Below are positions 4,306 to 39,634 of a stretch of DNA of 64,000 nucleotides, piece after piece; within the stretch, counting starts at the first letter, position 1, and each line of letters begins with the position of its first letter. The DNA lies in assembly GCA_038087875.1 (NCBI GenBank), contig CM075988.1:22818001-22882000 (forward strand), in the 5' to 3' direction. Under the pieces are notes generated by a model, which worked only from the letters and a program-made list of their open reading frames with translations, did not search any database and was not told where the DNA came from. Made by a program: the position numbers and the translations under genes. This DNA is from Malacoraja senta. Lineage: Eukaryota.

Positions 4306-4426
4306 ATGTCCTATCTGGGACACATAATTTCATTGTCCTATCTGGGACACATGACAATAAACACTCTTGAATCTTGAATCTTGATTGTCATACTTGTTGT
4401 AGAAAGTCAAATTGGATTAATTCTTT

Positions 4427-8684: not shown

Positions 8685-8909
<225 letters not shown>

Positions 8910-9208
8910 GTATGTAGACTTTAATTTGCCTCTGTTTATAAACTACTGAATTCTATATTAAGTACTTTTGCTTTGTTGCAGAGCAAATGTGACACTAAAT
9001 AAATTATGGTCAAAGTAGAATACAAATGTCATATTTCACTGTTACCTATGGCTGATTTTTTTTGTGCCATTTATTTTTTTCATAAGTATTGTATGATATG
9101 CACTATTTTGCTATTTCTTTTTTGATGAGAACAGATTTGCAAATTTGACATGCTTAACCTTTACATGGTATCTGTGTATAGGAGAAGAGAAAAGAGATAG
9201 GAGATACA

Positions 9209-10838: not shown

Positions 10839-11527
10839 TTTCCTCACAGAATGAAGTGGGAAGTATTTAAAAGAGGAACTATTAATCAAAGAACAGCAAA
10901 GGATAATTATTTTTGCACCTGGTGTAGATGTAAATAGCATTAAGAAATCTCTTCATATCTTTACGAACATCAACCAATGGTTCTTTAAGTACATCTTTAT
11001 CTCCTTGACTTCACCGTGATGTAGTATTTTTTTGCATCTCTAAATCTTGTTTTATTAAATAACACTTTACTATTTGCTCTAATTCATTACATCATTACAT
11101 AAAATGAACAATGCAGTCTAGTATGTGATGATGTTTATATGCCATAGATGCTTCCTTCCACACCAAATATCAACATTACCTTGTATTTCATTCAGTTTTT
11201 TCTTTGCTTAGCTTCCCCTTAATTACATTGCTGCCACATCTTGTGGTAGAAAATTCCACAGTTGTTGGATAAAGAAACTTCTCTATAATTTCCTATTAAA
11301 TGTATTAGTGACAATGTTAGTGTCACCTTACATATGGCAGAGATACAACTTGATACAAGATACAACAGCTTGGAATTATCTAAAAAGTACTAGTGATTGA
11401 TAATGATAATGTCAAAACAATTGAATTGTCATAAAAAGATCTACCTGGTTCACTAATTTCCTGAAGGGGAGGAAATCTGCCTTCCTTATGCAGTGTGCCA
11501 ACAATGATCATGTCCCTGAAAATGAAT

Positions 11528-12104
11528 TAGAAACATAGAAACATAGAAAATAGGTGCAGGAGGCCATTCTGCCCTTCGAGCCAGCACCGCCATTCATTAT
11601 GATCATGGCTGATCGTCCCCTATCAATTACCTGTGCCTGCCTTCTCCCCATATCCCTTGACTCCACTAGCCCCTAGAGCTTTATTAACTCTCTCTTAAAC
11701 CCATCCAGTGATTTGGCCTCCACTGCCCTCTGTGGCAGGGAATTCCATAAATTCTCAACTCTCTGGGTGAAAACGTTTTTTCTCACCTCAGTCTTAAATG
11801 ACCTCCCCTTTATTCTAAGACTGTGGCCACTGGTTCTGGACTCGCCCAACATTGGGAACATTTTTCCTGCATCTAGCTTGTCCAGTCCTTTTATAATTTT
11901 ATATGTTTCTATAAGATGCCCCCTCATCCTTCTAAACTCCAGTGAATACAAGCCTAGTCTTTTCAATCTTTCCTCATATGACAGCCCCGCCATCACAGGG
12001 ATCAATCTTGTGAACCTATGCTGCACTGCCTCAATCACAAAGATGTCCTTCCTCAAATTAGGAGACCAAAACGGTACACAATACTCCAGATGTGGTCTCA
12101 CCAA
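11528..12104 (-). mobile_element. CR1 LINE 3' fragment with (TTTCTATG)n tail
   Basis: LVRPHLEYCV..WSP, LEFRRMRG.LIETYKI; gaaacata repeats at 11528-11550. Confidence 0.93.
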
Positions 12105-12655
12105 CATTTTCACCAACATTAAGTAGCTTCTTATGGCAGCTCCCTTGAAAGATTGTGATGAATCAATTATTCCTCTCCTTTGTCATACTGATTTTGTATT
12201 TGTGTTTTGCAATCTCAGCTTGGCTTTCAATGTGTTTTTACAATGTATTATCTGACTATCAAGGTAATATGTGATCTAAACTAGCAACAGCTTAAAAGAT
12301 TTTAATATTTTAAACTACCTTCAACTATTTGGCTGTTTCTGCTTGGTGTAAGAAACTGCTGTAGTTTTGATAACTACATGAACAATGGGCACAAATGCTA
12401 TCCTAATCCATTTAAATTCCTACTTCCAGATACAAAAGTATTGCTCTCAGCTTAATGGTTGATTTGATTGTGGTATCAGGTTTTATGATAATTTATACAT
12501 GAATCAATTGATCAGATTCTTAGCTAGCTGTTTAGGTTAGATATACACTTGAAATAAACCAGGTGCAATTAGTGCAAGCATGCATCTTAAGGATAATTAG
12601 ACATCCTTCATTAGCAATATAAAAATCTAAGACCTCATTCATCATGTTGGCATAT

Positions 12656-14449
12656 ATCTCTGTTCTCTCTGTCTGTCTGTCTCCCACACTCTCTGTCTCT
12701 GCCTCTCTCTTTGGTCTCTTTCTCAGTCTCTCTGTCTTTGTCTAGTCTCTGTTTCTCCCTCTCTCTCTCTCTCTCCCTCTTTCCCTCTCTCCCTCTTTCC
12801 CTCTCTCCTCTTTCCCTCTCTCCCTCTTTCCCTCCCTCCACCTCTCCCTCCACCTCTCCACTCCCCTACCTCTCTACTCTTTCTCTCGACATTCTCGACC
12901 CTCTTCCCTGACCCTCTCTCTCTCTCTCTCTCTCTCTCTGTGTCTCTCTCTCTGTGTCTCTCTCTCTCTGTGTCTCTCTCTCTGTGTCTCTCTCTCTGTG
13001 TCTCTCTCTCTGTGTCTCTCTCTCTGTGTCTCTCTCTCTGTGTCTCTCTCTGTGTCTCTCTCTCTGTGTCTCTCTCTCTGTGTCTCTCTCTCTGTGTCTC
13101 TCTCTCTGTGTCTCTCTGTGTCTCTCTCTCTCTCTGTGTCTCTCTCTCTCTCTGTGTCTCTCTCTCTCTCTCTGTGTCTCTCTCTCTCTCTGTGTCTCTC
13201 TCTCTCTCTCTCTGTGTCTCTCTCTCTCTCTGTGTCTCTCTCTCTCTCTGTGTCTCTCTCTCTCTCTCTGTGTCTCTCTCTCTCTCTGTGTCTCTCTCTC
13301 TCTCTGTGTCTCTCTCTCTCTCTGTGTCTCTCTCTCTCTCTGTTCTCTCTCTCTCTGTGTCTCTCTCTCTGTCTCTCTCTCTCTGTGTCTCTCTCTCTCT
13401 GTGTCTCTCTCTCTGTGTCTCTCTCTCTGTGTCTCTCTCTCTGTCTCTCTCTCTGTGTCTCTCTCTCTGTGTCTCTCTCCTCTTTGTCTCTCTCTGTGTC
13501 CCTCTGTCTCTCCCTCCCTCTGTCTCTCCCTCCCTCTGTCTCTCCCTCCCTCTGTCTCTCCCTCCCTCTGACTCTCCCTCCCTCCCTCTGTCTCTCCCTC
13601 TCTCTGTGTCGCTCTCTGTGTCGCTCTCTGTGTCCCTCTGTCTCTCCCTCCCTCTGTCTCTCCCTCCCTCTGTCTCTCCCTCCCTCTGTCTCTCCCTCCC
13701 TCTGTCTCTCCCTCCCTCTGTCTCTCCCTCCCTCTGTCTCTCCCTCCCTCTGTCTCTCCCTCCCTCTGTCTCTCCCTCCCTCTGTCTCTCCCTCCCTCTG
13801 TCTCTCCCTCCCTCTGTCTCTCCCTCCTCTGTCTCTCCCTCCCTCTGTCTCTCCCTCCCTCTGTCTCTCCCTCCCTCTGTCTCTCCCTCCCTCTGTCTCT
13901 CCCTCCTCTGTCTCTCCCTCCCTCTGTCTCTCCCTCCCTCTGTCTCTCCCTCCCTCTGTCTCTCCCTCCCTCTGTCTCTCCCTCCCTCTGTCTCTCCCCT
14001 CCCTCTGTCTCTCCCTCCCTCTGTCTCTCCCTCCCCTCTGGCTCTCCCTCCCTCTGGCTCTCCCTCCCTCTGGCTCTCCCTCCCTCTGGCTCTCCCTCCC
14101 TCTGTCCCTCCCTCCCTCTGTCCCTCCCTCCCTCCCTCTGTCCCTCCCTCCCTCTGTCCCTCCCTCCCTCCCTCTGTCCCTCCCTCCCTCTGTTCCCTCC
14201 CTCCCTCTGTCCCTCCCTCTGTCCCTCCCTCCCTCTGTCCCTCCCTCCCTCTGTCCCTCCCTCCGTCCCTCCCTCCGTCCGTCCCTCCCTCCGTCCGTCC
14301 CTCCCTCCGTCCGTCCGTCCCTCCCTCCGTCCGTCCCTCCCTCCGTCCGTCCCTCCTCCGTCCGTCCCTCCTTCCGTCCGTCCTCCCGTCCTCCTTCCGT
14401 CCCTCCCTCCGTCCCTCCGTCTCGTCACTGTCCCTCCCCTCCGTCCCTC
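12656..14449. repeat. About 1.8 kb pyrimidine-rich compound micro/minisatellite
   Basis: (CT)n with GT interruptions, then a 16-nt unit tgtctctccctccctc, then ccgt/ccct units. Confidence 0.98.
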
Positions 14450-14649
14450 NNNNNNNNNNNNNNNNNNNNNNNNNNNNNNNNNNNNNNNNNNNNNNNNNNN
14501 NNNNNNNNNNNNNNNNNNNNNNNNNNNNNNNNNNNNNNNNNNNNNNNNNNNNNNNNNNNNNNNNNNNNNNNNNNNNNNNNNNNNNNNNNNNNNNNNNNNN
14601 NNNNNNNNNNNNNNNNNNNNNNNNNNNNNNNNNNNNNNNNNNNNNNNNN
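14450..14649. other. Assembly gap (200 N)
   Basis: Run of N; the true gap size is unknown. Confidence 0.99.
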
Positions 14650-15619
14650 GCCAAATCTAAATTCTGCTCTTGCCAGGTCTGTTAAAGCACACTGTTGATA
14701 ATATTTCACATACATTTGAATCCCTTAAAATCAGTTTAAGTAATTTCCTCCAAGAAATGTATTGTTTTAAATTATTGATAGAAGCAGATTCAAAGAATAA
14801 TCCTACAAATTGTCTCAATTTCTTCTTTGCAAAATCGGAATGTGTTTGTAACATTTGTAACGTCAGAACAAACAGTGAAGAGCTAAGATAATGATGACTG
14901 CAATGTAATGAACAAAACAGAAAAACACTGTACAATGACCACAGTATACCAATTGTCACAGAATACTGTTTTCTATAATATAGATTTTTAATTTTATATT
15001 TTAAAGATGCATTTTGCTTTATTATACTGTAACAGTAAAATGTTGCATTAGCATATTTTGCCACAAAATAAATATTTACTGTTAAAGTAACTTTAATATT
15101 TTTTTACCATAGAAACTAAGAATTGCTGTTGAGTCTCAAAAAGTAGTGCTATGACCAGTATTAATCATTTGGATGTTTGCTTGAGAAAGTGTTTAAAATA
15201 AGGACTGAATTTAATAGATTTTCTTGATTTACAATGTTTTATGCTCCCATTTCCATCCCCTCTCCTATTTTCATTTGGGTTTTAATGCTGTTGTAAAAGA
15301 ATATTCAGTATTCCACATTTTTAGTTTGATGAAACATAATTTTACGGTCATTACAAATTTTTATTACAAATAATATTTATGATAATGTCACCTCTGTAAT
15401 TGTTGTCCTTTATTTTAATGGGATTAAAACAATATTTTATTGTCCTAATCCCCAAGAAGAATTCACTTGTCAATTGTGAGGTTCTCATAACAGCATTGGT
15501 TCATTGTATGGTGTAGCAAAACTTTGTAGACCAGACACATACTTAAAGTTGTGAACTTAGGAGCCAGCCATTAAAAGGACTTCTAAACGTTCTTACACGT
15601 TTCTATAGTATTACATTCT

Positions 15620-16085
15620 ACCATCTCCCCTGGCAGTGTGTTCCAGGCAATTACTACTCTAGGTGTGAAAAAAATCCTAATCACACATCTCATTTCAACT
15701 TTCACCATCGCGCTTTATAGCTATGCCCTCTGATGTTTAATATTTCCATCCTTGGGCAAATAATTTTGATTATTTATGCCTCTCATAATTGTGTATACTT
15801 CTGCAGGGAACCCCTCAGCCTCCGAAGCTTTAGAGAAAAATAAAACAAGTTTGACCAAAGCTCATCTTTAACTTAAACTCTCTCATCCAGGCAACATCCT
15901 GGTGAACCTCTACTGCTCCCTCTACAAAACCTTCACATCATTCCCATCACGCAGTTAACAAAACTGCACACAGTACTACAAATGTGGCCAGCCAAAGTTT
16001 TATACAGCATGCCTTCATCACATTATACTCAGTGGACTATACGCCTATCTACTTCTGCTGCCACTTTCTGCGAGGTATGGATTGT
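15620..16085 (-). mobile_element. Old CR1-type LINE fragment
   Basis: Degenerate match to other CR1 3' regions (ccaggcaacatcctggtgaacctc...aactgcacacagtactacaaatgtggcc). Confidence 0.65.
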
Positions 16086-16269
16086 ACTCCAAAAGACAAA
16101 CAATAATATTGTATATGGTGCACACTTGGAATGATAGAATAACAGCAATCAAGCTCTTTAGCCCAAAGTGTCTGCAACAACCATCAAATATCTATTTACA
16201 CTAATCTCATTAAAAAAAATCTCCCCACATTGTCATCAACCCCCCCAATTCCACCACTGCAAATTGGGG

Positions 16270-16462
16270 GAAATTTCCAGAAACCCAGAAACCAGTTAAC
16301 CTACTAACTACACGTCATGGGAGGATACTGCAGCACTTGGAGGAAACCCACTTAGTCAGGGGAAAGGATGTGTAAACTGCACACAAACAGCACCAAGGGT
16401 CAGAATTGGATCCAGGTTGCTGAAGCTATACAGCAGCAGTCCTGCTACCTGCACCACTGTGC
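16270..16462 (-). mobile_element. tRNA-derived SINE (HE1/V-SINE type)
   Basis: Reverse-complement similarity to SINE copies at 19229 and 50640 (ggaggaaacccac...aaactgcacacaaacagcacc). Confidence 0.7.
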
Positions 16463-19228
16463 TTCATCCTCTTCTAAATCTAAATTATTTTTGTAAATTC
16501 AGATATTTAAATTCTCTTTCTTAATGAAAAATCTTGCCAATGCAAACAATGAGATTTAAAAAACTAACAAATAAATGTAAATATAGAAGGTTTGATGCAT
16601 TATACTAACTGTGAATGGAATTGAATTGTTGGAGGGAAGCTTAGAAAGCAATATTGTGATAAAGGAATTAAGACGACTCAATGGAGTGCTAGAAATATCG
16701 CCAAAATATGAGTTGAAGAATCTCGAGTGTTTTATTTTCATATATCCCGAAGCGGAACAATGAAATTCATACTTGCAGCAGCACAACAGATAAGTAAACA
16801 TAGTACTCTGTTAAACACCATAAAAACAACAAAAGTTCAGTGTATATAAAAAATAAAAAATATATAGTAAATGCCATCTTTTCACTTGTTCAAATTGAGT
16901 GATATGGTGCACTCTTGTGATATGGTGCACTCTCGTGATATGGCAGAAATGGCGCAAATACAAAGTGGGCACATTCATGCAGTAGTGACGATCAAAAATT
17001 GTGGATTTACTCTCTTGGGAGAGTATTAGTTTGTATGGGAAGTAGTATTCAGTGATACACATCAAGCATAGTTGGGCAACACAGAGAGGACACAATTTAA
17101 TCATAAAACAAACAAAGTAAGAATAAGAATGATTCTTCACCAAAGATTATGTGGGGAAAGAACATTTACACAGATGGTATATTGAAGAACTGAACCGAGT
17201 GACAGGGGAAAGAATAAGAAATACGCTTTTTGGGTTGTGATATCAAGGTTCCAACTGGGTGCAATTCACACTTTTCATCTCACAATCTTTCAGCTTTGTG
17301 GCCTAGAAATTCTTTTATAGTGTTTACTATTCGTGTGCAAAACACTATTGAATTAATCAAAAATATAATCATTAAATTTAATCGGACGCTAAATGTGCCA
17401 GTAATACTTTCTTAAATTAGATGTACGTTAGCTATGCACTCGTCATGGAAATGCCTGCAAACTACTTGCCATGTTCAGTGGAGTCATATACACTGTAAAC
17501 CCCAAATTGTGCAAGATTGTGTGTAGATAAGGCCTGTGAATATGCCTGACCGTTTGGCACAATGTAACCCAGTCCGCCACAACCTTTATACATCCCAATT
17601 CCTGGGCATTTTATTACAATAACATTTTTCAACTTAAAGATGTCAATTAACATTTAATCAAACAAAATTAGTTATAGTAGTATTACTAAGAGTATTGAGA
17701 ACTACCACTTTAAGAGTGCCTATAAGATGGGGGAATTATGTTTCACACTTGACTTTGTGCTTTTTGCATGGTTTCTGTGATACTTATGCATTTTTGCGTG
17801 CAGGGAGATTATTCCCTGAAACTGGCATGAGTTCTTTGTGCAGCATAAGTTTGCCATGTTTTTGAAGTGATTAAAAGTTTCTAGGCATTTGTTTTCCGCC
17901 ACATGCTCCCAAATATATTTGTTTTTCTCAAAATCTGTTGCATAACCGGAAAGATTGTTTTTAACTTAGAACCAAACCACTATTCATCTTATGTCGTGAT
18001 AAATTAAAGTTAGCAAAACAAGGCAAAGAAATATTATGTCTCAGAAATTATCTTTATGAATTCTGTATTGGCAGTTTTAAGACTAAAAATTCTATTGAAA
18101 GTGACTGATAAAGTTCATACTTTCACTGCCTATTACACTGACTATTACACATAGACGGCAGGTATCCACTGATGTGTTAACTTTAGCAAACTGAATCTGG
18201 ATCAGTTTAATCTTTGGTACTTGCCATCATGGTATACTGGATGACTTGGAGTATGTTTTTAACTTTGTTTCCATCTTACTTGATATAAAGGAACTTTCCT
18301 GAATTATAAATCTGTTTATTTCCTGGCATGTTTCGCTTAAAAGACCAAGCTATCTTATTTTTCATGGAAAATGTTGCCTATAAATCCAGATGCATTTAAA
18401 ATTCAAACTGGTGTATTAGTCTCAGGAGATTATGAGATATGTTCCTACCTATATGCCTCCAGTTATGAGTAATTATGTTCATTGGAGCAAGTAAAAGGAA
18501 ACTTGCTAACATCCCTCCTGTTTTAAAAGGTGTTGCAGTGTACAGAGAATTTTATTTTCCACAAACCCTGAAGCATTCCATAACTGCTGCTATAGTGCCT
18601 ATAAATCAAAATTTTGTATTTCCCTTTCTCTTTTGTTCATGCTTAGATCTGTCTGGTGACAAATTGTCATTTTCTTTCTGTTCAAATTCATTCTTTCTCC
18701 TAAAAGTTAAAATTTTCATGCTTTGGTGATATCAGCAAAATGCCTTCAAAATATTATTTTTTCAGACAAAGCATCACAGATTTATAGAAAATGGTTGTCT
18801 AACTATTTGCCAGCATTTCTGTTGAATCCTCAAAATGCCTAAGAATATACTAGTTTTAATAAAAATAAATATTTTATGTAAGTTTGTTTTTAAACCTGAA
18901 CCAGGTACCTGGAATAAACTATCCAATTGTACTTTACAATAATTTTCAGAAATTTTTTTAGGTTTTGATTCTTGAACTTGACTCATTCTCAGAAAAGATC
19001 AGAATGAATTCCCTGATGAGAAGAAAATCAAAGTTAAGATTTCAGGTGCAAAACCTTTATTGAATGGTTTTAGACCTGAAACATTAACTGTTAACTGTTA
19101 AATATTAGTATTAATAGATTTCCAACATCTATAGTTTTGTTGATTTCCATTTAGAATTTGGAAGAGATTTATGTAGTTAATGATCCTCTTGGAGTCGTGA
19201 GCAGAGCATGTGAGAATTCTAGTTAAAA

Positions 19229-19425
19229 GCAGCACAGTGTCACAGCTAATAGAACCACTGCCTCTCAGCTGCAGAGACCCGTCTTCAATCCTAACCTCAG
19301 ATGCTGTTTGCATGGAGTTTGTACATTCTCCCTGTGATGCTGTAGGTTTCCTCTGGGTGCTCCAGTTTACTCCCACATCCCAAAGGCATATGGGTTGCTA
19401 GGTTAATTGGCCACTATAAATTGAG
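19229..19425 (+). mobile_element. tRNA-derived SINE (HE1/V-SINE type)
   Basis: gcagcacagtg head; central tggagtttgtacattctccctgtg...ggtttcctctgggtgctccagtttactcccacatcccaaag. Confidence 0.75.
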
Positions 19426-19429
19426 TTGT

Positions 19430-20145
19430 TGCAAGTGGACTGCGAAAATAGGCCAAAGGCAAGGTCAGTAGATGAGCAATGCAGATATTTAAGCAGCTAT
19501 TGCATGATGCTCAGCAGAAATTTTCTCAAACGGAAGAGGAACTCAGTGAGAAAGTTGAACCATGTGTGTTAACAAAGGAGGTCAAGGGAAATATTAAATC
19601 AAAACTCGAGCATATGAACAATCAAATCTAGTAGTAGACCAGAGAACCAGCAGCAAAAGATTAAAGTTAATGAGGTAAGAGAAATTTGATTTCAAGAGTA
19701 TGATATTTTAGCTACAAAAACACGAAGAAAACTATAGATATATAAAAAGGAATTGGATAGCTAAGGTAGGTGTGGGACCCCATGGGGACTGAGACTGGGA
19801 ATTAATAATGCAAAACATTAAACCAATTTAATCAATAATTTTAAACCAGCACATTAAATCAGTCTTCACAATGGAGGACTCTACAAATATCCCAAGGAAA
19901 ACAGATGGACTATTTTCAAATAGGAAGCAAGAACTCGTAACAATCTGTCAGGGGGAATCAAATATTAGAGGTGATAATGGACGTAAAGGCAGACAGATTG
20001 CCATGCATTCAAGGGTGTTAAAGGAAGTAAATGCAGAAATAATAGAGCCGTTGGTTGAAGATCTTCAAAACTCTAATTTTCAGGAAGGTGCCAGCAGATT
20101 AGTAAACAGCGAATGTGATACCCTTGTTCAAGAAGGTAGGGAGAC
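19430..20145 (+). mobile_element. Old CR1 ORF2 fragment
   Basis: MHSRVLKEVNAEIIEPLV resembles LHPRVLKEVAPEIVDALV in the young CR1. Confidence 0.7.
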
Positions 20146-20152
20146 AACATGA

Positions 20153-20593
20153 TTTAAACCGAAGATAGACACAAAAAGCTGGAGTACTTCAGTGGAACAG
20201 GCAGCATCTCTGGAGAGAAGGAATGGGTGACGTTTCGGGTCGAGCCCCTTCTTCAGACTGGTTAGGGATAAGGGGAAACGAGAGATATAGACGGTGATGT
20301 GGAGAGATAACAAGATGTGGACTAGTATACATCCGGCGAGACCAAACGCAGACTGGGCGATCGGTTTCTCTGAACACCTTTGCTCAGCCCGCGTGAACCA
20401 ACCTGATCTCCCGGTTGCTGGACTCTTTAATTCTCCTTCCCATTCCTACACAGACCTTTCTGTCCTCGATCTCCTCCATTGTCAGAGTGAGGCTAAACGC
20501 AAATTGGAGGAACAGCATCTCATATTTCGCTTGGGCAGTTTACAGCCCAGTGGTATGAATATGAATTTTTCTCACTTCGGGTAGCCCCGGCAT

Positions 20594-20636
<43 letters not shown>

Positions 20637-20890
20637 CTCCCCCACCCAAATCGTACCAGCTTCCCATTTTCACCCTACAAACAGCTTACAATGGCCTGTT
20701 TCTTTTATTATCATTACTTTTTTGCATATCTTTCATTCATTGTTCTTTATCTCTCCACATCACCGTCTATATCTCGTTTCCCTTATCCCTAACCAGTCTG
20801 AAACGTCTCGACCCGAAATGCCACACATTCCTTCTCTCCAGAGATGCTGCCTGTTCCGTTGAATTACTAACAGCTTCTTGTGTCTATCTA
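20153..20890 (+). mobile_element. Penelope-like element (PLE), 5'-truncated, with GIY-YIG endonuclease end and inverted pLTR copies
   Basis: 20327-20584 encodes, with frameshifts, YI.ETKRRLGDRF.EHL...RKLEEQHLIFRLGSLQPSGMN. 20153-20310 is an inverted copy of 20747-20889. Possible TSD aacatgat. Confidence 0.88.
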
Positions 20891-20895
20891 TGATA

Positions 20896-21715
20896 AACAT
20901 GATATCCTCTGCCATTTCTGACAGCTCCAATGTGATCCCACCACCCGTTGCACTCTCCCCCTCACCTTTCTGCAGGGAACTATCTCCATGATCATAGTTC
21001 GCTCATCCCTCCCCATCCATCCTTCCCTTCCCGGTACTTACCCTTGAAATCCATTGGAGTGCAACAGCTATTCCTTCACCTCCTCCCTTACCATCATTCG
21101 GGACCTAAACGGTCTTTCCTGCACCTCTTCCAACCTGGTCTACTGCATTCACACTGCACTCAATGTGGCCGACTCTGCTTTGGTGAAACCAAGCATAGCC
21201 AAGATGACCATTTTGTAGAGTACTGCGCTGTCTTCAAAATCCATCTTCAGCTTCCAGTTGGCTTGCATTTTAACACTTCTTCCCACTCCTACACCGACCT
21301 GCCTGTCCTCACCCTTCTCCGTTGCTGCAGAGAGTCCAAACGCAAATCGGAAGAACAACATCTTTCCATTGGATAGCTTACAACCCAATGGCTTGAACAT
21401 CGAATTTTCCAATGCCAGGTAGCACACACCCCAGTGTTCATCCTCCACATACATACTCACCTAGTGTTTCTTTTCTCCCTTTGTTTCTTTCTGCCATTCT
21501 CCCCTCTACCCAGTTGCATACCCACCTCATCTGGATCCATCAATAACCTACCAGCCTGTACCCACCCTCTTCTCGTGCAAGCAATCTTTCTTAGTCTTGA
21601 AGCAGGGTCTCGCTCTGAAAGGTTGACATGCACCTTTTTGCCTCCACAGATTTTGCTTGAGCTGCTCAGTTCTTCCAGCATTATGTTTTGTTGTTCCAGA
21701 TACCAGCATCTGCCA
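20896..21715 (+). mobile_element. Older PLE 3' fragment (GIY-YIG) with degenerate pLTR
   Basis: SSNLVYCI..CTQCGRLCFGETK...PVGLHFNTSSHS...RKSEEQHL...LQPNGLNIEFS. Confidence 0.85.
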
Positions 21716-22271
21716 TTTCTTTTGTCTTTATTTATTTCCTCTTCATCCATGTGCGAGAGACTCATAAAAAAAAATATATATATATATTAACATTTTTGCA
21801 GAGCTCTGAGTGTATATTCATGTGTTACATTTGTAGGCCTACATTCCTGAACCACCAAAGCTTTGTAATTTTGAAATCAATAGAAGTGTTATTTATTTAA
21901 ATCCAAGTTGTTTGGTTCTCATTATTTGTAATCATGAAATTTGCAATTAAGACTGCAGAGTTTTTCTATTAACAAGTCATTACTCTGCATGAATAAACAT
22001 TGGGCCAGTTGGTATTACATAATCAAAAAATTAAACCATGTATTTAGGGAAATGGACTCAGGAAATGTAAACATAATTAATTACAATTCTCAACTGCTCA
22101 ACTCTTGTGTTTACTGTTGGTGCTTCCTGACTTTTCTTGAGTGCACCCATTCAATGGATTCATTTTGATCACTTCATTTTTTGTGACAAATCATGTATTT
22201 TTAAAATGTGAAAGTGTATACCCATAATGGACTGCAACAAGAATGAAAAATTGTTTTTTTTTTTAAACAAT

Positions 22272-22640
22272 TACATAGAACATAGAACAAACAGTGCAGC
22301 ACAGCCCACAATGCCTGTGCCGAACATGATGCCAAGTTAGACTGTTCTCATCTTCCTGTACATGATCCATTCCCTCTATTCCCTGCATTTCCATGTGCCT
22401 ATCTAAAAGCCTCTTAAATGTCACTATAGTATCTGCCTGTACCATCACCCTTGGAAATGTTTTCCAGGTCCCCACAACTCTGTGTTAAAAACACTTGCCC
22501 TGCACATCTCCATTAAACTTTCCCCGTCACACATTATAGCTATGCCCTCTTGTGTTGGACATTGCCACCCTGGGAAAAAGGTTCTGACTGTCTGCCCTTT
22601 CTATGCCTTTCATCATTTTATATACTTCTGACAAATCTCC
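22272..22640 (-). mobile_element. CR1-type LINE 3' fragment
   Basis: catagaac tail; TFKRLLDRHMEMQGIEG in ORF 22263-22475. Confidence 0.75.
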
Positions 22641-23327
22641 CTCATTTTGTTGTTGGAGAAACGGTTGCAAGCTTTTTGGGGTTCAATTACCGTTACAAAA
22701 TAATGTACCACATTTATTGCTAGATGTCCAGATGAACATTACACAGATTTTATCTGCTTAAACTACTGTGTGTCATGAATTTTACTTCACAATTACAGAA
22801 GCATAATACTCCTGAAGATTCTCAGCAGGTCAAATTACCATCTGTGAAGAGAGAATAAGAGTTAATATTTCAAATTTCCGACCAATTCATCAGCTATGAT
22901 TGTCTCTCTTCACAGATGCTATCAAATATTTCCTACATGTGTCACAGTTTCTGGGAGTAGGACTTTAAAGCTAGAAATGCAAATAATAAATAGATGTATC
23001 CTTTGAGATTGCAATTCATGTGAAATAATAAAAATCAGCATTTTTAATTTATATTAAATATCTAATATATGTTAATATTTTTGCAAAAATGTTTCTGTAA
23101 ATGAATATCCATAGTAAAATTGGACAAAAGAATTAGACAAAACTCCAAAACATTTGCTCATTTATTATTACGTGACAATTTATTATTAGATTATTAGATT
23201 TATAGCAATTCTGTTGAGAAAGTAACATTAAAAGATGTTTATTGATTAGCTTTTGACAATAGGCTAGTTAAAGGGGTTAAATATTGTGTGATTGTTGCAT
23301 AGATGAATAGTTTGATTCAGTTACACA

Positions 23328-23362
23328 GCACACGCACGCACACACGCACACACGCACACACG

Positions 23363-23393
<31 letters not shown>

Positions 23394-23397
23394 ACAC
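23328..23397. repeat. (CA)n/(CACG)n microsatellite
   Basis: Read directly from the sequence. Confidence 0.95.
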
Positions 23398-25041
23398 AAA
23401 TCCATGGCGTACATGCACATGACATGCTTTACTTAACGTAATGAACTTTTGTAAATGTTGACCTTTGTTAGAAGACAATTGTTTAATGTAAATGATTAGT
23501 GCGGGGAACACAGGAAATTAATGGAAGGGAAAGAGCGGAAGATAACATGTAAGTTCTGGAGACCAAATTGATGTTTGGTTTGATTATCATGTGAAGAGTC
23601 CACAGATTGAGTAATTGGCAGAATAGCTTTTAACTATATATGCATCGATTTTGCCAATAACAATACATCTTAAGTGAACTGGCATAAATACAATGCAAAG
23701 ATAGTCTCGTTGACAGAAATTTCTGTCCACTATATAGAGGAATTTAGCAGATTAACTGAAAATATATAAATAATTGATGTAGCAAAGCAAAATTTGTGCT
23801 GTAATTTTGTCCTATTATTAAGTGAGATGGGGGAGGGAGGCATCAATGGGACTTTGTAATTGTGATTATCTAGGTTGAATGCTTTGAAATTCATCTTTGC
23901 GCTAAGTAGAGTAGGCACTTTAATATAGGAAGATTGGTGGAAAGTTTATGTTAGTTAACGTTTTGCAGATTTTGCATTTGCAAAGGTATTGACGTAATAG
24001 GTGAATGAAATTATGAATGGTATCTTACTATGAGTGGACACCAAGTTGTGCTCTACTGCTACCTCCCCAGGGCAGCGCTATATCATTCTCTTCCTTGGTG
24101 AAGTGCCATGATGCCCACAAGTATTGGTGCCATAACGGAAAGTGATCTGAGATAGTGTGGCAGAAATCTGATCTTCCACTGCTGTCTTTAGGTATTCAGT
24201 GGCTTCAACTTGTGATGAAGTTAGTGGAGACATCAGCATCAAGTGATGTATAACAATAATTGGTTGGCATGCATTGTAATAGTGTTGGTTACTGCTTCCA
24301 TGTTGGAAAGGATTGTTGTCATTACACACATTCCTGAGTGATGTTGGAGCTGTACTCCGCTTGCTCTTTGTTAGGATGTTTTAATGTGGAAGAGAATAGA
24401 AAGGCTGATCTGTTTTCCCTGGTGCTGAGAAGATTAAGAGGGGACATGATTGTGATAATTTTATAACATTATTATGAGGAATATTGATAGGGTAGACTGC
24501 AGCAAACTATTCGCATTATCAGAGGTATACCAAGGTTCACCAGAACACATAGACAATGAATATGGCTCTGCAGAAATGCAAAATTCCACATTATCAGATC
24601 TCTTTTGCGATTGTAAACTGCTTTCAGAATTGCTGACCATCAACTCGTCTACTCTTGGGTTTTCTGACCTTCCTCTTCGCCACACCTTGGCCTTTCCACA
24701 CAATCCCAGACCCGATGCTAGCCTGTTTCTGCAGCAGTTTTTGCAGAACAAGCCAATTGTACCGATGAATTGGTGCAATGAATTGCAGGGATTTGCATTA
24801 ATGGACTTTTCCACAAAACCAGTACAATGAAATCATATGAATTTAATTTACTACAAAGACTGTAACATTTTAAGATCACAATTTTTTTTAAATCTTTGGA
24901 GTCTAGATTAACCAAATGTTCTTGTGCTGTTTTTGATTAATTGCTGTTGATGTGATTTTCTTTACATCTGTAGTATGATTATTTAAGGAGAATGGGGGAA
25001 ATAAATGCAGTTAATTGTGTGGACAGGGTTCATACAAAGAT

Positions 25042-25226
25042 GCTATATTTAAGAGGGAATTAGATGTGGCCCTTGTGGCTAAAGGGATCAGGGGGTATGG
25101 AGAGAAGGCAGGTACGGGATACTGAGTTGGATGATCAGCCATGATCGTATTGAATGGCGGTGCAGGCTCGAAGGGCCGAATGGCCTACTCCTGCACCTAT
25201 TTTCTATGTATCTATGTATCTATGTA
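25042..25226 (+). mobile_element. Very young CR1 3' end with (TATCTATG)n tail
   Basis: Reverse complement of 29464-29640, with no differences seen. Confidence 0.93.
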
Positions 25227-26004
25227 TGCTGCCCGATCATATGATTTCCTCCAGCAGTTTGTTTTTTGTTCAGGATTCCAGCATCTGCAGTCACTTGCAT
25301 CTCGAGTGTGCATTATCTGTGTTGGTGAGCCAGATGGAGGTCAAAAATTGCATCATTTCATTTTAATTTTGTTTCCCTTGGCAACTTGCGTTAGAACTGA
25401 TTGTCTTGGGAATTGAAGGAACACATTTGATTTTATCACATTTGTATTCCAGTGTGCTGCTGATAATATTAAATTTTTATGCAGGCTGTGCATTGTAGCC
25501 CTCAAAGGATTTGTGTGGGCTGTTCATTTAATGATCTTGAAACATTAAGGCTGTTAGCTGTAAGAGCTCACATGTCACACATGTGTTTGGTGTATAGTGC
25601 AAATTCAATTGGAGAATTCTGCTAAATGATCACAGATGAGACCGATTTGTCAGCGTGCTAAAATGCAAGAGGAACAGTTTGTGTCAGTTTAATTATCAGT
25701 CAAGTGTGAAAATGAATTGAGGAACATTGCAGGCTACTGCTCTCAGGTTATGGAAATTCACCCTTATGGAATTATCAAATCACTACTCAAAAATGTGAAA
25801 TCTATCTATAACTAAAACTCTCTCTGGTTAGTTTTCCTATTTTCTTCCAAACGCTAGGCCACAGCCTTCCCGTTTTAAACCATCCTAATGACATTTTCCC
25901 CCTCGATGAGATAAACACCTTCCCGTCGCATTCCAACCTCTATTTCCAAAGTTTTTTGTTTTAATCGTTTAAAGTTTTAAAAACACCAAACACCCATTTT
26001 CCGA

Positions 26005-26134
26005 CCGAGTGACGTCACAATGCACTCTCCAGCGCTCCAACGGCACTCCAGATTTTCCCGGGAGGGAGGGGCACTTCACCGCTCCGACGACAGTTTGCAA
26101 AGACGGGCCACTCCGGCCGAGTGACGTCACAATG
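26005..26134. promoter_or_regulatory. Two palindromic CRE motifs (TGACGTCA at 26010-26017 and 26122-26129) in a CpG-rich segment
   Basis: 18-bp direct repeat ccgagtgacgtcacaatg; function unproven. Confidence 0.35.
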
Positions 26135-26677
26135 GCCGGGACATTCCGAGAGGGATGGGCACTCCGGCGCCCGAGACCCGAAGCCCGACGCCTGGTGGGA
26201 GGGTGGTGCTGGAGTGAGGGCCGAGCCCGGGGCTTGGGATGGGGCAGTGACTGGGGCCAAAAGAGAAGCCGCCGCTGGAACCAATGAAAACCTTGGTCCG
26301 GGGTCAGGGACGAGCCTGGAGATGAAGTCGGGGCCTCCACTGGAGCAAGGGCGGCGAAATAAAAATAAGAATAAGTTTAATTTGACACCTAATTCACTTT
26401 CATATCTTCAGTATTAAAAAAGTTATGGCCATTTTCATACTCGGAAATTAGCATCTTGTTCCCTATTGCTTTTCCATTGACTTAACACAAAAGCTGTGAT
26501 CGAAGACAGTCAAAAGCCCATAACTTTCTTAAAAATTAAGAGAACTGAAAGAAATTTTCAGTTATTATAGATTGAAGCATTCTGAAACAAATATGAAACA
26601 ATCTTACTTAGATGACATGAAATTAAAGCATATAATTAGTTAGTTACCTAATTGAAGCTAATTACAAAATTCAATAA

Positions 26678-27304
26678 AAAGCCTGTCTCACGAGTCTGCG
26701 GTGATACAGGAAGTATCTACCGCTCGTGGACCGCCAGAGACCGCTGGTTCGGTCAAACGTCCACCGCCGAGGCCGTGTGGCGTTGGTCCCAACACCGCAC
26801 GGTGCTCACAAAAAGTCAGCACTGTTTAAAAATAATTTCTTACTGCACAGCCGCCGTCAGTGAGGCACGAGTGCGGCACGGTCACCGCCACAGCCGCCGC
26901 CAGTGAGGCACGAGTGCGGCACGGTCACCGCCACAGCCGCCGCCAGTGCAGCACGAGCCCCGTGAGTGGAACTTTCACCGCCACAGCCTCCGCCAGTGAG
27001 GCACATGTGCGGCACGGTCACCGCCACAGCCTCCGCCAGTGAGACACGTGTGTGGCACGGGCGCCACCACAGCGCCGCGATCAGCACTACCGCCGCCACA
27101 GCCCCGCTTGCTTTATTAGAAAGCAAATTTCGATAACACCGCAAGCTCGTGGGACCGGCCGTACTGAGATCACTCAGCCCCCGCGCAGCATCCGTGCGGC
27201 GCTCCCGCGGCATAGGCTCGCCGCTCTCGGGGTTGACGTGCGGTCCCCTCTTCCGGCGACGCCGCGCTTCACCGCCAATGACCGCAACACCATGAGACAG
27301 AGCC
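26678..27304. mobile_element. GC-rich PIF/Harbinger-like MITE nested in the hAT-like element
   Basis: Absent from the paralogous copy, which reads ttcaaTTActagatc. Flanked by TAA and TTA; imperfect TIR core ctgtctca/tgagacag. Confidence 0.65.
26846..27100. repeat. 43-bp GC-rich minisatellite, about 5-6 units
   Basis: Unit cacagccgccgccagtgaggcacgagtgcggcacggtcaccgc. Confidence 0.9.
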
Positions 27305-29463
27305 TTACTAGATCTAAACATCTATCAATTTCTTAAGAATAGATTAACATTTTTTAATAGCCTAAGTGTCCAAATAACATTCACACAAGAATTCACAATA
27401 TAACATAATTTTAAAATCTCATTGTCATGGATTTACAGGCCAAATGGAAGGAATTGAATGTTTAATACCTGTAAATTAATGGGCATTTAAATCATTTTGC
27501 GAGTGAGGTTTTCTAGAACGCGATCATTTGGAACGTTGGAGTTGCGGTGAATTTAACTCCGTATCGGCATGAAAAATACTGCGGGGAATAAAATCACCGT
27601 TTCGCATAAAAAAATGTGAATTAAAGGCTTCTTAAGAAGCACTTTTATACATTAAGCACTTTTATACATTAAAATAAACTACTTTCATTTACCTGTCCCG
27701 TGTGTGAAATCTGTCCCCGTTGTCGGCATTGACGGCTTTCGAAGCTGATTTTAAAATGACTCCAGCGCTGACATTGTCGATTTAATAAAAATAAAAAATA
27801 CACAAAACCCCCGTAGGAACGATTTTTCAGCAAACGCTTGTACTCCAACGAAATATAATACAGGACAAGGTAGGAGAAACCCGCGTTTTAACCCCGACCC
27901 CCCCCCCCTTAAAGGCACCAAAATCGCGCACACGGCCAGTGGCAGAACTGCAGCGCCGCTGAAGGTAAGTATTGTAACATACCTACCACTTGGTCTAGTA
28001 GATAATAAAATTCACGCTTATGAAATTGATGTGGGAAAAAAATAAACAGAAAAGAGAAAAGAAACAGTAAATGTTGCCAACTTTATTTTTAGTACCGCAG
28101 GCGAGTACGATTTCACCTCACTGCATCAATTGGGTTAACAGTGTCAGCCACGTCCCTCCATTGTCTTGCCCTCTCTAGACAGAACAGGAATCTCAGAGGT
28201 CAGCACTACCACGCTCTTCATCTACAAGGCCTTCTCTCTGTGCTGCATTGTGCGGAGCTGCAATAGTCATGGTCAGCTCCTTAAAATAATCCCCTGGCAT
28301 TTACTTCACTTCCACTAAATCGCTGCACTTTAACCCATAATTCCCCTCCCTGAACTTCTACACCATCTCACACCCATGAACTCTGACACTCAAATCCAAT
28401 TCCTTTCACTGATTTCCCTGATCTTCGATTCCAATTCCTTTCCCTCATTTCCAAACTCCTTTCCTATTCCATGTATGTCAGAGAAAATGCCTTGCATATT
28501 CAAGAGCACGACACTGCTGCACTCTGAGATATCTGTTCACATGTCCTTGGATGGGAAAGGAGGTGGCTGTTTTGTTGCCAACCCAATCAATGAGGTGCCG
28601 TTATACAAATCTTATTGCCCCACTATATTAAGTGACTAAAAATAAAAAAATAAGACAAACTTTGTTTCTTTTGAATGAACCATTTCCCCATAGTATAATG
28701 TGGGCCTAAACTGTTAAATACCGATTGTGGTACACTTCATCATCACCAATAAAATGGCTTAACATGAGAGAAAAATGTCCCATAGGAACACGGCTTGTAA
28801 CATGGGATTCAAGGGGAAAAGGGGAAAATTATAGAAAGTCGCGATACAGAGGTTTTCTAGGAATGCAACTCCTCTGTAACGGGGGGTGGGGGGTGTGTGG
28901 GGGGGGGGGGGGGAGGTTGCCTGCAGTTACAGTTACTGGTAGAAATCAACAGTAGCACAAGATATATTTTTTGATGGCCTATTAAAAATATTTCAGTTAT
29001 ATAAGTGTGAGTTGGGAGCTTGAAACCAATTTTCCCAGACCTTAACTTCTAAGACATTGCCAGCATTATGGCAATACAATATGCCCACCACATTGAATTT
29101 ATTGCAAGAAAATTGAAATGCCTTTGAAGTGAAGTAGTCTTGCTGCAAAAATGTGGGATCCTGGTGAAACAACACCAGAAAGAGGATCCCTTAGAGGGGT
29201 TGCAACAAAGGTTATTCATGAGAAAATTTTCCTATTGAATAAAAAAACTCGATTATCTCAGGAGTTCAGAAGAATGAGAAGTGATCCAAATGAAAAATGT
29301 AAAATTCCCCAAATGTTTTATCAGGCAGATATTGACAGCGCCGTTTAACCTGGTTGTAGAATTTAAAAAATAGTCTCAGGATAAGAAACCGATCAGTTAG
29401 AAAAGAAATGTGAAGACACCTCTTCACAAATTCTTCTGCCCCAGACGGTTATGGATGTTGAGT

Positions 29464-31573: not shown

Positions 31574-31859
31574 TTACCCATAGACCACAATTCCCCCATC
31601 ATCATAATCATCAAATATAAGTTGATGATTATATTTAAGACTGCGATTAAGAAATCTCTCTGCACTTATAGAATATGGGGGAAATTGCATTAATAAAGTT
31701 CAGCTACAAACTCATTGGATGGCAGCACTCAAATGAGTGAAGAGGAGGGGAACGGGTTGTGTAAGGTATAATATAAAGACACATGTTTAATTACTATAAA
31801 ATGATAATGCACGTAAATGTAGGTTGATGCACAAGCATTCTTTTCCTTTAAGAAGTTAT

Positions 31860-32130
31860 AACAGGATGGTCATTTAAAATAGGTGTGTGGGAATTTCTTC
31901 TCGCAGAGGATAGGGAATCTCTGAAATGTTCTACCCCAGTGAAATGTGGTGGCAAGATTATTGAAAGTATTTAAAGAGGAGATAGATGTTTTTGTAAAAG
32001 ATGGGGGAATTGTGGTCTATGGGTAACTGGCAGTGAAGGAGTTGCAATCTGGGGCCAATCACCTTGATCGGATTGAAGAGTTCGACAGACTTGAGTGGCC
32101 TATTGCATATCCTGCTCCTTTGTTCTTTAA
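31860..32130 (+). mobile_element. Old CR1 3' end
   Basis: aatttcttctcgcagaggatagggaatctctgaaat...tttaaagaggagatagat...gagtggcctatt. Confidence 0.65.

Positions 32131-39394: not shown

Positions 39395-39634
<240 letters not shown>

What the first reader, a model, noticed from the sequence alone, without database searches (positions are those of the whole stretch)
20153..20890. Dispersed Penelope-derived repeat family carrying a minimal hammerhead ribozyme core
Seen: the commonest short repeat in the window (about 15 copies) reads agt-CTGAAGA-a-GGGTC-tc-GACCC-GAAA-CGTC-acc on one strand. Here it forms the terminal repeat of a fragment encoding a GIY-YIG endonuclease end. Established: CUGANGA/stem II/GAAA/UH is the hammerhead core, and Penelope-like elements are known to carry minimal type I hammerheads in their pLTRs, with helix III reduced to a short palindrome (here ACGT) and cleavage proposed as dimers. 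Inference: this is an elasmobranch PLE family whose ribozyme-bearing ends pepper SIK3 introns. Core nucleotides look intact at about 20228-20256 (-), about 45721-45748 (-) and 56114-56141 (+), but helix I is only 2-4 bp in most copies.
Basis: partly seen in the sequence, partly recalled or inferred. Interest (0 to 1): 0.72.

Follow-up and report, generated by a model that had tools for sequence, protein, structure and literature searches.

The report
Skate Penelope repeats carrying minimal hammerheads
A very common short repeat in this skate-like fish's genome is the end of a Penelope-like jumping gene and carries a stripped-down hammerhead ribozyme motif, as already known for such elements in other animals; the copies here, inside introns of the SIK3 gene, look like decaying leftovers rather than working ribozymes.

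Summary
The window has 23 arms of a 90-130 nt repeat; the majority sequence is a minimal type I hammerhead core (CUGANGA, extra A, stem II, GAAA, ACGU palindrome, C17). The focal insertion (20154-20889) has the textbook Penelope-like layout: inverted 5'-truncated pLTR, GIY-YIG C-terminus, 3' region, sense pLTR. Its closest named protein matches are from skates and its relatives have the Neptune-type Cys linker. Corrections: the intact core (20229-20256) is antisense to both the element's own ORF remnant and SIK3; the sense core is broken; stem II is 4 bp plus a tetraloop; helix I is 2 bp. Copies show no excess core conservation (0.87 vs 0.84, p=0.32), no significant covariation, and CpG decay that removes G12 in 4 of 17: neutral fossils. 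No cleavage was tested. This is a new member of a published kind (Cervera and de la Pena 2014). Points of added value: the 2-bp helix I fails the published search descriptor (0 hits), the family is extremely abundant (about 165,000 contigs laid in each of two runs), and short copies begin 1-4 nt before C3, not at the cleavage site, so uncleaved RNA is the likely template.

The parts
20154..20889 (.). Whole focal insertion: inverted pLTR + GIY-YIG C-terminus + 3' region + sense pLTR
   Evidence: Inverted arms 20183-20310 / 20747-20868 at 87-100% complementarity; bounded by a 5-bp direct repeat at 20149-20153 and 20890-20894 (short, so a weak target-site duplication)
20154..20310 (-). Inverted, 5'-truncated pLTR arm (54 nt of upstream pyrimidine-rich region, hammerhead, about 75 nt downstream; only the first bases of the tail)
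20227..20258 (-). Minimal type I hammerhead motif: helix I 5' strand 20258-20257, C3-A9 20256-20250, extra A 20249, stem II from 20248, GAAA, ACGU palindrome, C17 at 20229; predicted cut between 20229 and 20228; helix I 3' strand 20228-20227
   Evidence: All 12 core positions intact; stem II 3 of 4 pairs; helix I 2 bp. Antisense to SIK3
20329..20584 (+). C-terminal part of a Penelope-like GIY-YIG endonuclease, from just after the YIG motif to the stop codon; one frameshift near 20365
   Evidence: tblastn 20335-20367 and 20366-20578; best named hits Leucoraja and Rhinoraja proteins, 64-72% identity; 312 relatives at E<=0.001; alignment
20581..20796 (+). 3' non-coding region with a (CT)n tract; starts with a donor-like GT overlapping the stop codon and ends with a pyrimidine tract and CAG just before the hammerhead (possible pLTR intron; inferred only)
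   Evidence: sequence; alignments of four ORF ends and six upstream regions
20747..20889 (+). Sense pLTR; its hammerhead core (20798-20822) is broken (3-nt deletion in CUGANGA, U16.1 changed, stem II 2 of 4)
20904..21720 (+). Second, older Penelope-like fragment directly downstream: decayed Cys linker, GIY-YIG, 3' region, decayed hammerhead (about 21597-21626) and tail
   Evidence: tblastn 20904-21419; profile hit 21598-21686
45646..45805 (-). Same subfamily, with tail; best-formed hammerhead in the window (45721-45748: core intact, stem II 4 bp with one G.U, helix I 2 bp); interrupted upstream by a Tc1-type transposon
56036..56215 (+). Short insertion with inverted tail, hammerhead 56114-56141 (core intact, stem II mismatch, helix I 1 bp) and a 14-bp target-site duplication
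4822..4968 (-). Solo unit with 11-bp target-site duplication; 5' end 2 nt before C3, 3' end at the tail end
53359..53519 (+). Solo unit with 13-bp target-site duplication and tail; core intact, no helix I
6189..6394 (.). Head-to-head pair joined at a GTC/GAC microhomology between the core start and stem II; tail on one arm only. Similar pairs at 35459-35663, 43564-43730 and 58271-58500 (older subfamily)
   Evidence: the + core here is locked in a hairpin (z -4.5)
61578..62292 (-). Third endonuclease-end + 3' region + pLTR copy (different 3' region); a fourth, very decayed one lies at about 35940-36260 (+)
1368..4559 (-). Four further arms: 1368-1466, 1616-1713, 3935-4036 (inside a Tc1 copy), 4430-4559 (with tail); others at 25224-25262 (+), 41513-41586 (+), 46349-46445 (-, inside a Tc1 copy)
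8748..55990 (+). Host gene SIK3: kinase and following exons near 8748-8910, 39416-39541, 40325-40440, 53095-53215, 55850-55990; the focal insertion is in the intron between 8910 and 39416
   Evidence: the exon coordinates other than 39416-39541 are approximate, from short motif matches

Best explanation
The repeat is the pseudo-LTR end of an endonuclease-bearing Penelope-like retrotransposon of skates, most likely Neptune clade, whose pLTR carries a minimal type I hammerhead. Shown: anatomy, family, abundance, neutral decay. Inferred mechanism: the element's protein nicks a target and starts reverse transcription internally, at one of two sites about 85-90 and about 120-125 nt downstream of the start of stem II (giving copies without or with the 30-37 nt tail), and copies back through the uncleaved hammerhead. 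Most products stop 1-4 nt upstream of C3, giving 90-130 nt solo stubs; some switch template and give head-to-head pairs; a few run on into the upstream 3' region and endonuclease end, like the focal copy. In the parent element the ribozyme is probably weak and protein-assisted (2-bp helix I, zero-loop helix III, a competing fold that pairs the core with the downstream pyrimidine tract). The dispersed intronic copies are dead on arrival and do not cut SIK3 pre-mRNA to any meaningful extent.
For: Layout equals the published PLE arrangement of inverted 5'-truncated copy plus a 30-40 bp tail on one end (Craig et al., passages): in 4 of 4 head-to-head pairs only one arm has the tail; target-site duplications of 11, 13 and 14 bp bound three stubs. 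Relatives join RT, a Cys-x2-3-Cys-x2-Cys linker and GIY-YIG (P0032, P0156), the linker marking Neptune/Nematis. The motif fits the published min-HHR consensus including the extra nucleotide after A9, G10.1-C11.1 and the palindromic 15.2-16.2 (PMC4209133); 7 descriptor hits against 0.155 expected. Uncleaved template: 0 of 23 arms start at the cleavage site (profile positions 33-35); an empty Tc1 site and a TSD fix two 5' ends at -2; in four public runs summed depth falls 5- to 9-fold just upstream of the core and loose ends at 20257-20260 are among the six largest in each run, none shown at 20228-20229; Anolis PAc uses unprocessed RNA, starts internally at two sites 111-118 nt into the ORF that begins at stem II, and its hammerhead cuts only with protein (PMC11167929). 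Neutral decay: core 144 of 166 vs body 829 of 992 identical letters (p=0.32), CpG sites 111 of 168, G12 lost in 4 of 17.
Against: No cleavage, expression or RNA-end data: all four runs laid are contigs, two only guessed to be RNA. No Rfam hammerhead model matches, even at E<=10 on two 170-nt stretches. No covariation beyond shuffles (133 of 500). Forced hammerhead folds are 5-16 kcal/mol above the minimum-energy fold as monomers (7 of 7 copies) and 14-17 as dimers (3 of 3), although these energies ignore the tertiary core. The depth drop at 20259 is confounded by subfamilies with different upstream regions (loose-end consensus at 20260 is purine-rich). No RT is in the window and no RT tree was built, so Neptune is by linker motif only.
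Confidence: 0.85

Rival explanations
1. The hammerhead in this family is vestigial: the letters persist as part of the RT/endonuclease recognition signal or promoter/splice signal of the pLTR and no longer cut, even in the parent element.
For: Helix I 2 bp, below the 3-bp minimum of the published descriptor; competing core-pyrimidine tract duplex beats shuffles at p<=0.014 in 4 of 10 copies; the best-conserved columns lie downstream of the cut site as much as in the core; PAc hammerhead mutants still insert in vitro; 8 of 9 Xenopus retrozyme dimers did not cleave.
Against: The core is kept in at least three diverged subfamilies in the window whose stem II/loop 2 and upstream regions differ; 2-bp helix I also occurs in D. 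virilis and Culex motifs, and an extended D. virilis motif showed some cleavage.
Confidence: 0.3
2. The short stubs are a self-propagating non-autonomous family (SINE-like or retrozyme-like), transcribed from their own start site and mobilised in trans, rather than truncation products of the autonomous element.
For: Uniform length and sharp 5' end; an initiator-like YCAGTCT at -4 to +3 (consensus recalled); non-LTR retrozymes derive from pLTRs and occur in one chondrichthyan (bioRxiv 10.64898/2026.07.22.740005); a 35-nt tandem repeat of the core appears in 3+2 contigs.
Against: No head-to-tail tandem of the unit among the 23 arms; stubs and endonuclease-bearing copies share the same sequence and ends; a solo stub starting at -2 has lost whatever lies upstream.
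Confidence: 0.2
3. Some intronic copies are active or domesticated ribozymes that process SIK3 (or other host) pre-mRNA, like the conserved intronic hammerheads of amniotes.
For: Three sense-strand copies keep all core letters (6302, 53382, 56114).
Against: The two copies that pass the descriptor with a 2-bp helix I are antisense to SIK3; of the sense three, one is locked in a hairpin, one has no helix I, one has 1 bp and a stem II mismatch; no strand depletion (10 + vs 13 -); no excess conservation.
Confidence: 0.03
4. The hammerhead likeness is chance.
For: No Rfam match; no covariation; one ancestral sequence copied many times counts as a single event.
Against: It sits exactly where published PLE hammerheads sit, in the pLTR after the endonuclease, and shows features outside the core that the published consensus lists; kept across subfamilies.
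Confidence: 0.03

Closest known systems
Minimal type I hammerheads (min-HHR) in pLTRs of metazoan Penelope-like elements (Cervera and de la Pena 2014, PMC4209133)
   Same: Core CUGANGA-H, G10.1-C11.1, GAAA-N-palindrome-UH with no helix III loop; place in the pLTR; mostly single or opposite-strand pairs 100-700 bp apart; closest listed look-alikes by eye are the Crassostrea, Culex and Xenopus(2) rows of Fig. S3
   Different: Helix I 2 bp (descriptor needs 3-7), stem II 4 bp; no chondrichthyan among the 56 motifs of Fig. S3 or in Table S1; density of 1 arm per 2.8 kb here is far above the 4,000-9,000 motifs per genome reported for coelacanth and Xenopus (different counting rule)
Neptune clade of endonuclease-bearing Penelope-like elements
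   Same: C-terminal GIY-YIG with two Cys between the motifs, Cys linker in close relatives, inverted pLTR, one-sided tail, variable target-site duplications
   Different: Only 3' remnants in the window; no RT or full ORF seen; Nematis shares the linker and was not excluded by phylogeny
PAc (Poseidon of Anolis carolinensis; Frangieh et al. 2024, PMC11167929)
   Same: Hammerhead about 100-125 nt upstream of two 3' ends that bracket the tail; copies include the uncleaved ribozyme
   Different: Poseidon clade; there the ORF starts at stem II, here the first ATG lies 21 nt after the cut site and runs 17 codons to a stop in the focal arm; PAc cleavage was shown, this one was not
Drosophila virilis Penelope
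   Same: 2-bp helix I; intron 416-491 ends 5 nt before C3 at 496, like the pyrimidine tract plus YAG that ends 1 nt before C3 here
   Different: Splicing shown there, only inferred here; D. virilis has a bulged stem II and a short helix III
Animal non-LTR retrozymes (PMC7229834; bioRxiv 10.64898/2026.07.22.740005)
   Same: pLTR-related, non-coding, type I hammerhead
   Different: Retrozymes are head-to-tail tandems of mostly 150-450 bp giving circular RNAs; these are solo or head-to-head stubs

Membership tests
min-HHR of PLE pLTRs | Core CUGANGA / GAAA / UH intact | tested here: met
   All 12 positions in the focal copy, in 6 of 17 aligned copies and in the column majority
min-HHR of PLE pLTRs | Stem II of 3-7 bp starting G10.1-C11.1, with an extra nucleotide after A9 | tested here: met
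   Extra A in 17 of 17; G-C or G-U at 10.1-11.1 in 16 of 17; 4 bp in 8 of 17
min-HHR of PLE pLTRs | Palindromic 15.1-16.1 without loop | tested here: met
   A-U in 15 of 17, 15.2-16.2 complementary in 14 of 17
min-HHR of PLE pLTRs | Helix I of at least 3 bp (published RNAmotif descriptor) | tested here: not met
   0 hits at >=3 bp, 2 hits at 2 bp. The same paper lists 2-bp cases (D. virilis, Culex and others), so this lowers fit to the descriptor, not to the class as the authors drew it
min-HHR of PLE pLTRs | Located in the pLTR of a PLE | tested here: met
   Follows the GIY-YIG stop by about 175-430 nt in 4 of 4 endonuclease-end copies
min-HHR of PLE pLTRs | Covariation in the helices | tested here: inconclusive
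   Score reached by 133 of 500 shuffles; 17 related copies, two of them misaligned by one column
Hammerhead ribozyme (functional) | Self-cleavage after H17 | not testable with these tools
   No assay; no raw RNA reads listed
Rfam hammerhead families | Covariance-model match | tested here: not met
   None at E<=1 in the window or E<=10 in two local stretches; expected for motifs without full helices I and III
Endonuclease-bearing PLE | C-terminal GIY-YIG endonuclease with CCHH-type Cys pair | tested here: met
   C-terminal half in the focal copy; Cys-x2-Cys and His in the second fragment and in relatives
Endonuclease-bearing PLE | pLTRs, inverted 5'-truncated copy, one-sided 30-40 bp tail | tested here: met
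   the focal insertion itself has almost no tail
Endonuclease-bearing PLE | PLE-type RT in the same ORF | tested here: inconclusive
   Absent from the window (truncated); present, below Pfam's cut-off, in relatives P0032 and P0156 at 43-49% identity to the fragment
Neptune clade | Cys-x2-5-Cys-x2-Cys linker between RT and endonuclease | tested here: met
   Intact in close relatives, decayed in 21030-21070; the focal copy is truncated after it; shared with Nematis
Neptune clade | RT phylogeny | not tested
   No RT in the window, no reference set at hand
Non-LTR retrozyme | Head-to-tail tandem units each with a hammerhead | tested here: not met
   0 of 23 arms in head-to-tail tandem units; only a minor 35-nt repeat joint in public contigs

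The most novel reading that the evidence does not exclude
Skate genomes hold several hundred thousand hammerhead-bearing stubs that published searches could not see (2-bp helix I), and their ends record the PLE life cycle: the main 5' end 1-4 nt before C3 marks a fixed RNA boundary (a transcription start, or the 3' splice site of a pLTR intron running from the endonuclease stop codon to the ribozyme), which itself limits helix I to 2-3 bp and leaves the ribozyme switched off by a competing fold until the element's protein binds; and a minority of inverted arms that begin at 20228-20229 in public contigs are copies of cleaved RNA, the first genomic footprint of PLE hammerhead cleavage in vivo.
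Probability: 0.15. Interest if true: 0.65.

Novelty: new member of a known kind. Interest (0 to 1): 0.3.

Why it matters
The class is known, so a specialist would not be surprised that a skate PLE has a minimal hammerhead. The value is as material: the role of PLE hammerheads is still described as unclear (PMC8557442), and no RNA ends at the cut site were found in Anolis. A family with on the order of 10^5 or more insertions gives a natural census of cDNA 5' ends, so a junction map in one skate assembly could show at no bench cost whether cleaved RNA is ever copied and what fixes the boundary at the ribozyme's 5' edge. It also shows that a 3-bp helix I filter can miss what may be one of the largest hammerhead-motif families in vertebrates.

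Tried and rejected
Whole-genome analysis: no genome is held, so all copy statistics are from 17-23 window arms plus summary tables of public contigs. Rfam, three searches: only chance miRNA/snoRNA/lncRNA matches, rejected. Pfam and PDB on the focal fragment: nothing, because the GIY-YIG motif itself is cut off. RNAalifold on 17 copies does not recover the hammerhead; it gives one 4-bp helix downstream. Monomer folds of 7 cores are no better than shuffles except the one locked in an inverted junction. Expression and cleavage ends: no RNA holder listed; the two runs guessed to be RNA are contigs. Splicing at the donor-like site (20581) and acceptor-like sites (20796; also the AG before the downstream ATG): no such joint among the 15 of 288 joints shown and no high-agreement loose end among the 24 of 2007 shown; kept as a lead only, and the donor-like letters may simply be a last Arg/Gly codon plus stop. 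Cleavage as the source of the main 5' end: rejected (0 of 23 arms). The 1.6-kb inverted-repeat element first taken for a MITE is a Tc1-type transposon. Earlier findings: none by sequence or place. Literature: searches for hammerhead with shark, Callorhinchus or skate, Penelope with elasmobranch, Leucoraja or cartilaginous fish, and Neptune with shark listed no paper describing this family; only listings were seen for most hits; Repbase and Dfam could not be searched, and the supplements of the 2026 preprint, which covers one chondrichthyan genome, are closed and may list it.

Full report
1. Observation. The repeat is real. A profile HMM built from 12 copies (which match it by construction) finds 23 arms at E<=0.0013; two weaker hits (E 0.28, 0.5) were dropped; the reversed window gives nothing better than E 2.4. 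The arms are 40-130 nt, cover 3.2% of the window and lie 10 on +, 13 on -. They give the deepest self-match pile-up among the dispersed repeats listed. A relaxed minimal-hammerhead descriptor gives 7 hits, one of them a composite across an inverted junction, against 0.155 on average and at most 2 in 200 dinucleotide shuffles. That shows the motif is in the family; being one family, it is one evolutionary event, not seven.

2. Host context. Kinase exons on the + strand identify SIK3: 39416-39541 matches human SIK3 at 41 of 42 residues, E 9e-26, well above MARK kinases; further exons lie near 8748, 40325, 53095 and 55850. The focal insertion is in the intron between about 8910 and 39416. The four hits that carry an organism name, among 11 relatives of the element's protein remnant, are from Leucoraja, Rhinoraja (two) and Amblyraja, so the host is very probably a skate; the species was not determined.

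3. Anatomy of the focal insertion. From left: a 5-bp direct repeat (20149-20153); an inverted pLTR arm on - (20154-20310) with the intact hammerhead core at 20256-20229; the end of a GIY-YIG endonuclease on + (about 20329-20584, one frameshift near 20365); a pyrimidine-rich 3' region with a (CT)n tract; the sense pLTR (20747-20889), whose core at 20798-20822 is broken; the 5-bp repeat again (20890-20894). A second, older fragment follows at 20904-21720 with decayed Cys linker, GIY-YIG, pLTR and tail; two more endonuclease-end copies lie at 61578-62292 (-) and about 35940-36260 (+). The fragment alone has no Pfam or PDB hit, but has 312 relatives at E<=0.001; of 14 relatives that I chose for length or rank, 9 hit GIY-YIG PF01541 (2 above the curated cut-off) and 2 hit RVT_1 below cut-off. 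They show RT, a Cys-x2-3-Cys-x2-Cys linker and a GIY-YIG with a Cys pair between the motifs. Craig et al. (bioRxiv 10.1101/2021.04.23.441226 and PMC8557442, passages) give the linker as the mark of Neptune and Nematis, and the inverted 5'-truncated copy and one-sided 30-40 bp tail as typical of PLEs; Li et al. (bioRxiv 10.64898/2026.07.22.740005, parts 1-3 of 5) found only Neptune and Poseidon in vertebrates. Neptune is therefore the likeliest clade; no RT tree was made.

4. The other copies. Four head-to-head pairs (6189-6394, 35459-35663, 43564-43730, 58271-58500) have the tail on one arm only. Three short insertions have target-site duplications of 11, 13 and 14 bp. Two copies of a second subfamily sit at the same place inside Tc1-type transposons, and a third Tc1 copy gives the empty site. 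At least three subfamilies differ in loop 2 and upstream region.

5. The ribozyme motif. Numbering follows established hammerhead usage. The column majority of 17 copies has C3-A9, an extra A (17 of 17), a 4-bp stem II closed by a tetraloop, GAAA, the ACGU palindrome without loop, C17, and a helix I of U-A and G-C followed by an A.C mismatch. This fits the consensus of Cervera and de la Pena (PMC4209133; parts 1-2 of 4 of the text and the whole supplement PDF) in the features they list outside the core. It does not fit their RNAmotif descriptor, which needs helix I of 3 bp or more: 0 hits, 2 hits (20256-, 45748-) when relaxed to 2 bp. Their Fig. S3 has 2-bp cases (D. virilis, Culex and others) and no chondrichthyan row. 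Rfam hammerhead models do not match.

6. Tests that went against function of the dispersed copies. Core positions outside CpG are identical to the majority in 144 of 166 letters, the downstream body in 829 of 992 (one-sided p=0.32); CpG positions in 111 of 168; G12 is lost in 4 of 17, as CpG decay predicts (two older copies are misaligned by one column there, which slightly understates core identity). Covariation is not above shuffles (133 of 500; pairs kept 78.7%, 49 of 500). Only 6 of 17 copies (7 after realignment by descriptor) keep all core letters. Both copies that pass the 2-bp descriptor are antisense to SIK3; the three sense copies with intact cores are locked in a hairpin, lack helix I, or have 1 bp and a stem II mismatch. 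Forced hammerhead folds lie 5-16 kcal/mol above the best fold in 7 of 7 monomers and 14-17 in 3 of 3 dimers, with the caveat that such energies ignore the tertiary core. The preferred fold pairs the purine-rich 5' half of the core with the pyrimidine tract after the cut site; this duplex beats shuffles at p<=0.014 in 4 of 10 copies and not in the other 6.

7. Genome-wide view. 466 nt of the locus were laid at 80% likeness on four of the 24 runs listed; all are contigs, and the tool says some differences went uncounted. About 165,000 contigs were laid in each of X1 and X9, 14,000-16,000 in X22 and X23; contigs are not copies, but the family is clearly huge. The window's density, 1 arm per 2.8 kb, would mean several hundred thousand arms in a genome of about 2 Gb (size recalled; one window may not be typical). 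The focal stem II mismatch at 20245 is private: 94-98% of depth reads the pairing base. The 30-nt tail appears as a loose end at 20153 in all four runs (agreement 0.6-0.7). Summed depth falls 8.6, 6.6, 5.1 and 6.2-fold between the bin holding the core start and the next bin upstream, and loose ends at 20257-20260 are among the six shown for every run (24 of 2007 rows shown); those at 20258-20259 in X1 and X9 have AT-rich, low-agreement consensus (0.32), as unrelated flanks would, while those at 20260 partly reflect other subfamilies' upstream regions. None shown lies at the cut site. Among 15 of 288 joints shown, one joins 20228 to 20260 on opposite strands (4, 5, 1, 1 contigs) and one 20189 to 20229 (1, 1); among 12 of 297 rows with letters between, two in X9 join 20261 or 20266 to 20229. 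A joint at 20216 is commoner (19 contigs), so the cut-site joints are a hint only.

8. Mechanism. Shown: family, layout, ends, decay. [quoted passage not shown] In the window 0 of 23 arms start at the cut site, and 7 arms start 1-4 nt before C3 into unrelated flank or a junction (1464, 1710, 4032, 4556, 4957, 6302, 35581), two of them fixed at -2 by an empty site and a duplication. Why there? Three readings: a transcription start (the letters fit an initiator consensus, recalled); a 3' splice site (pyrimidine tract plus YAG ends 1 nt before C3 in 4 of 4 endonuclease-end copies, a donor-like G|GT overlaps the stop codon in 3 of 4; in D. virilis the pLTR intron 416-491 ends 5 nt before C3, PMC2377424 passages); or RT release at the edge of a protein-bound structure. 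I cannot separate them, and no spliced joint was seen.

9. Comparison and novelty. It works like, and by core, stem II, palindrome and position belongs with, the minimal hammerheads of PLE pLTRs; it fails the published descriptor on helix I and has no activity data. It is not a retrozyme (no head-to-tail units). Li et al. report retrozymes in one chondrichthyan genome; their supplements are closed and may bear on this family. My searches listed no paper on hammerheads in shark or skate PLEs; PMC6155905 and PMC7229834 (passages) do not mention them; Arkhipova et al. 2013 (PMC3846280, passages) describe the same inverted, tailed layout. Repbase and Dfam were not available, and the repeat is probably catalogued there as a Penelope-like family. 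An earlier AI note from another genome (e1-7788996) describes like stubs; it is not independent evidence.

10. Verdict. Observation confirmed, interpretation supported with corrections. New member of a known kind; interest 0.3. The dispersed copies are neutral fossils; the worth of the family is as a very large record of cDNA ends for asking what PLE hammerheads do.

Noticed in passing
window 9208-10839, 45806-47535, 3415-4309: Tc1-type DNA transposon copies with about 225-bp inverted termini and broken transposase frames (family label from recalled motifs). Two copies carry a hammerhead stub inside the transposase gene at the same place, the third is empty: the stub probably hitchhiked with the transposon.
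   Followed up: partly
window 45806: The stub-carrying Tc1 copy is itself inserted at a TA in the upstream region of the PLE copy at 45646-45805; a weak match at 47531-47593 may be its continuation.
   Followed up: partly
window about 8866: The SIK3 kinase exon changes frame just after HRDLKAE, one base short in a run of A; most likely an assembly error.
   Followed up: no
window 20207-20228 (-): After the predicted cut site come a pyrimidine tract, an almost invariant AG and an ATG (17 codons to a stop in the focal arm); acceptor-like in all subfamilies, with the cut site next to a branch-point-like A. No splice evidence found.
   Followed up: partly
tail-bearing copies, e.g. 4430-4559 (-), 45626-45753 (-): The downstream GAUGCUG can pair either with a proximal CAGCAU or with a second CAGCAUCU in the tail; each of the two 3' ends lies 20-27 nt after one of these motifs, a candidate signal for the two RT start sites.
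   Followed up: no
window 6299-6304 and probably 35585: Head-to-head junction made through a 3-nt microhomology between the start of the core and the 3' strand of stem II.
   Followed up: partly
proteins P0001-P0003, P0011: Skate gene models (an RT fragment, RTP3-like, neuromedin-U receptor 1, DCC) include pieces of this endonuclease: exonised repeat or annotation artefact.
   Followed up: no
window 11525-12104, 25042-25226, 29461-30184, 38246-38975, 45052-45304: Another dispersed repeat family of about 5-6 copies, not identified.
   Followed up: no
window 26365-27985 and 57210-58122: Two related stretches of a longer repeat, 81-96% alike, not identified.
   Followed up: no
window 13470-14650: Long purine-rich simple repeat next to an assembly gap of 200 N at 14450-14649.
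   Followed up: no
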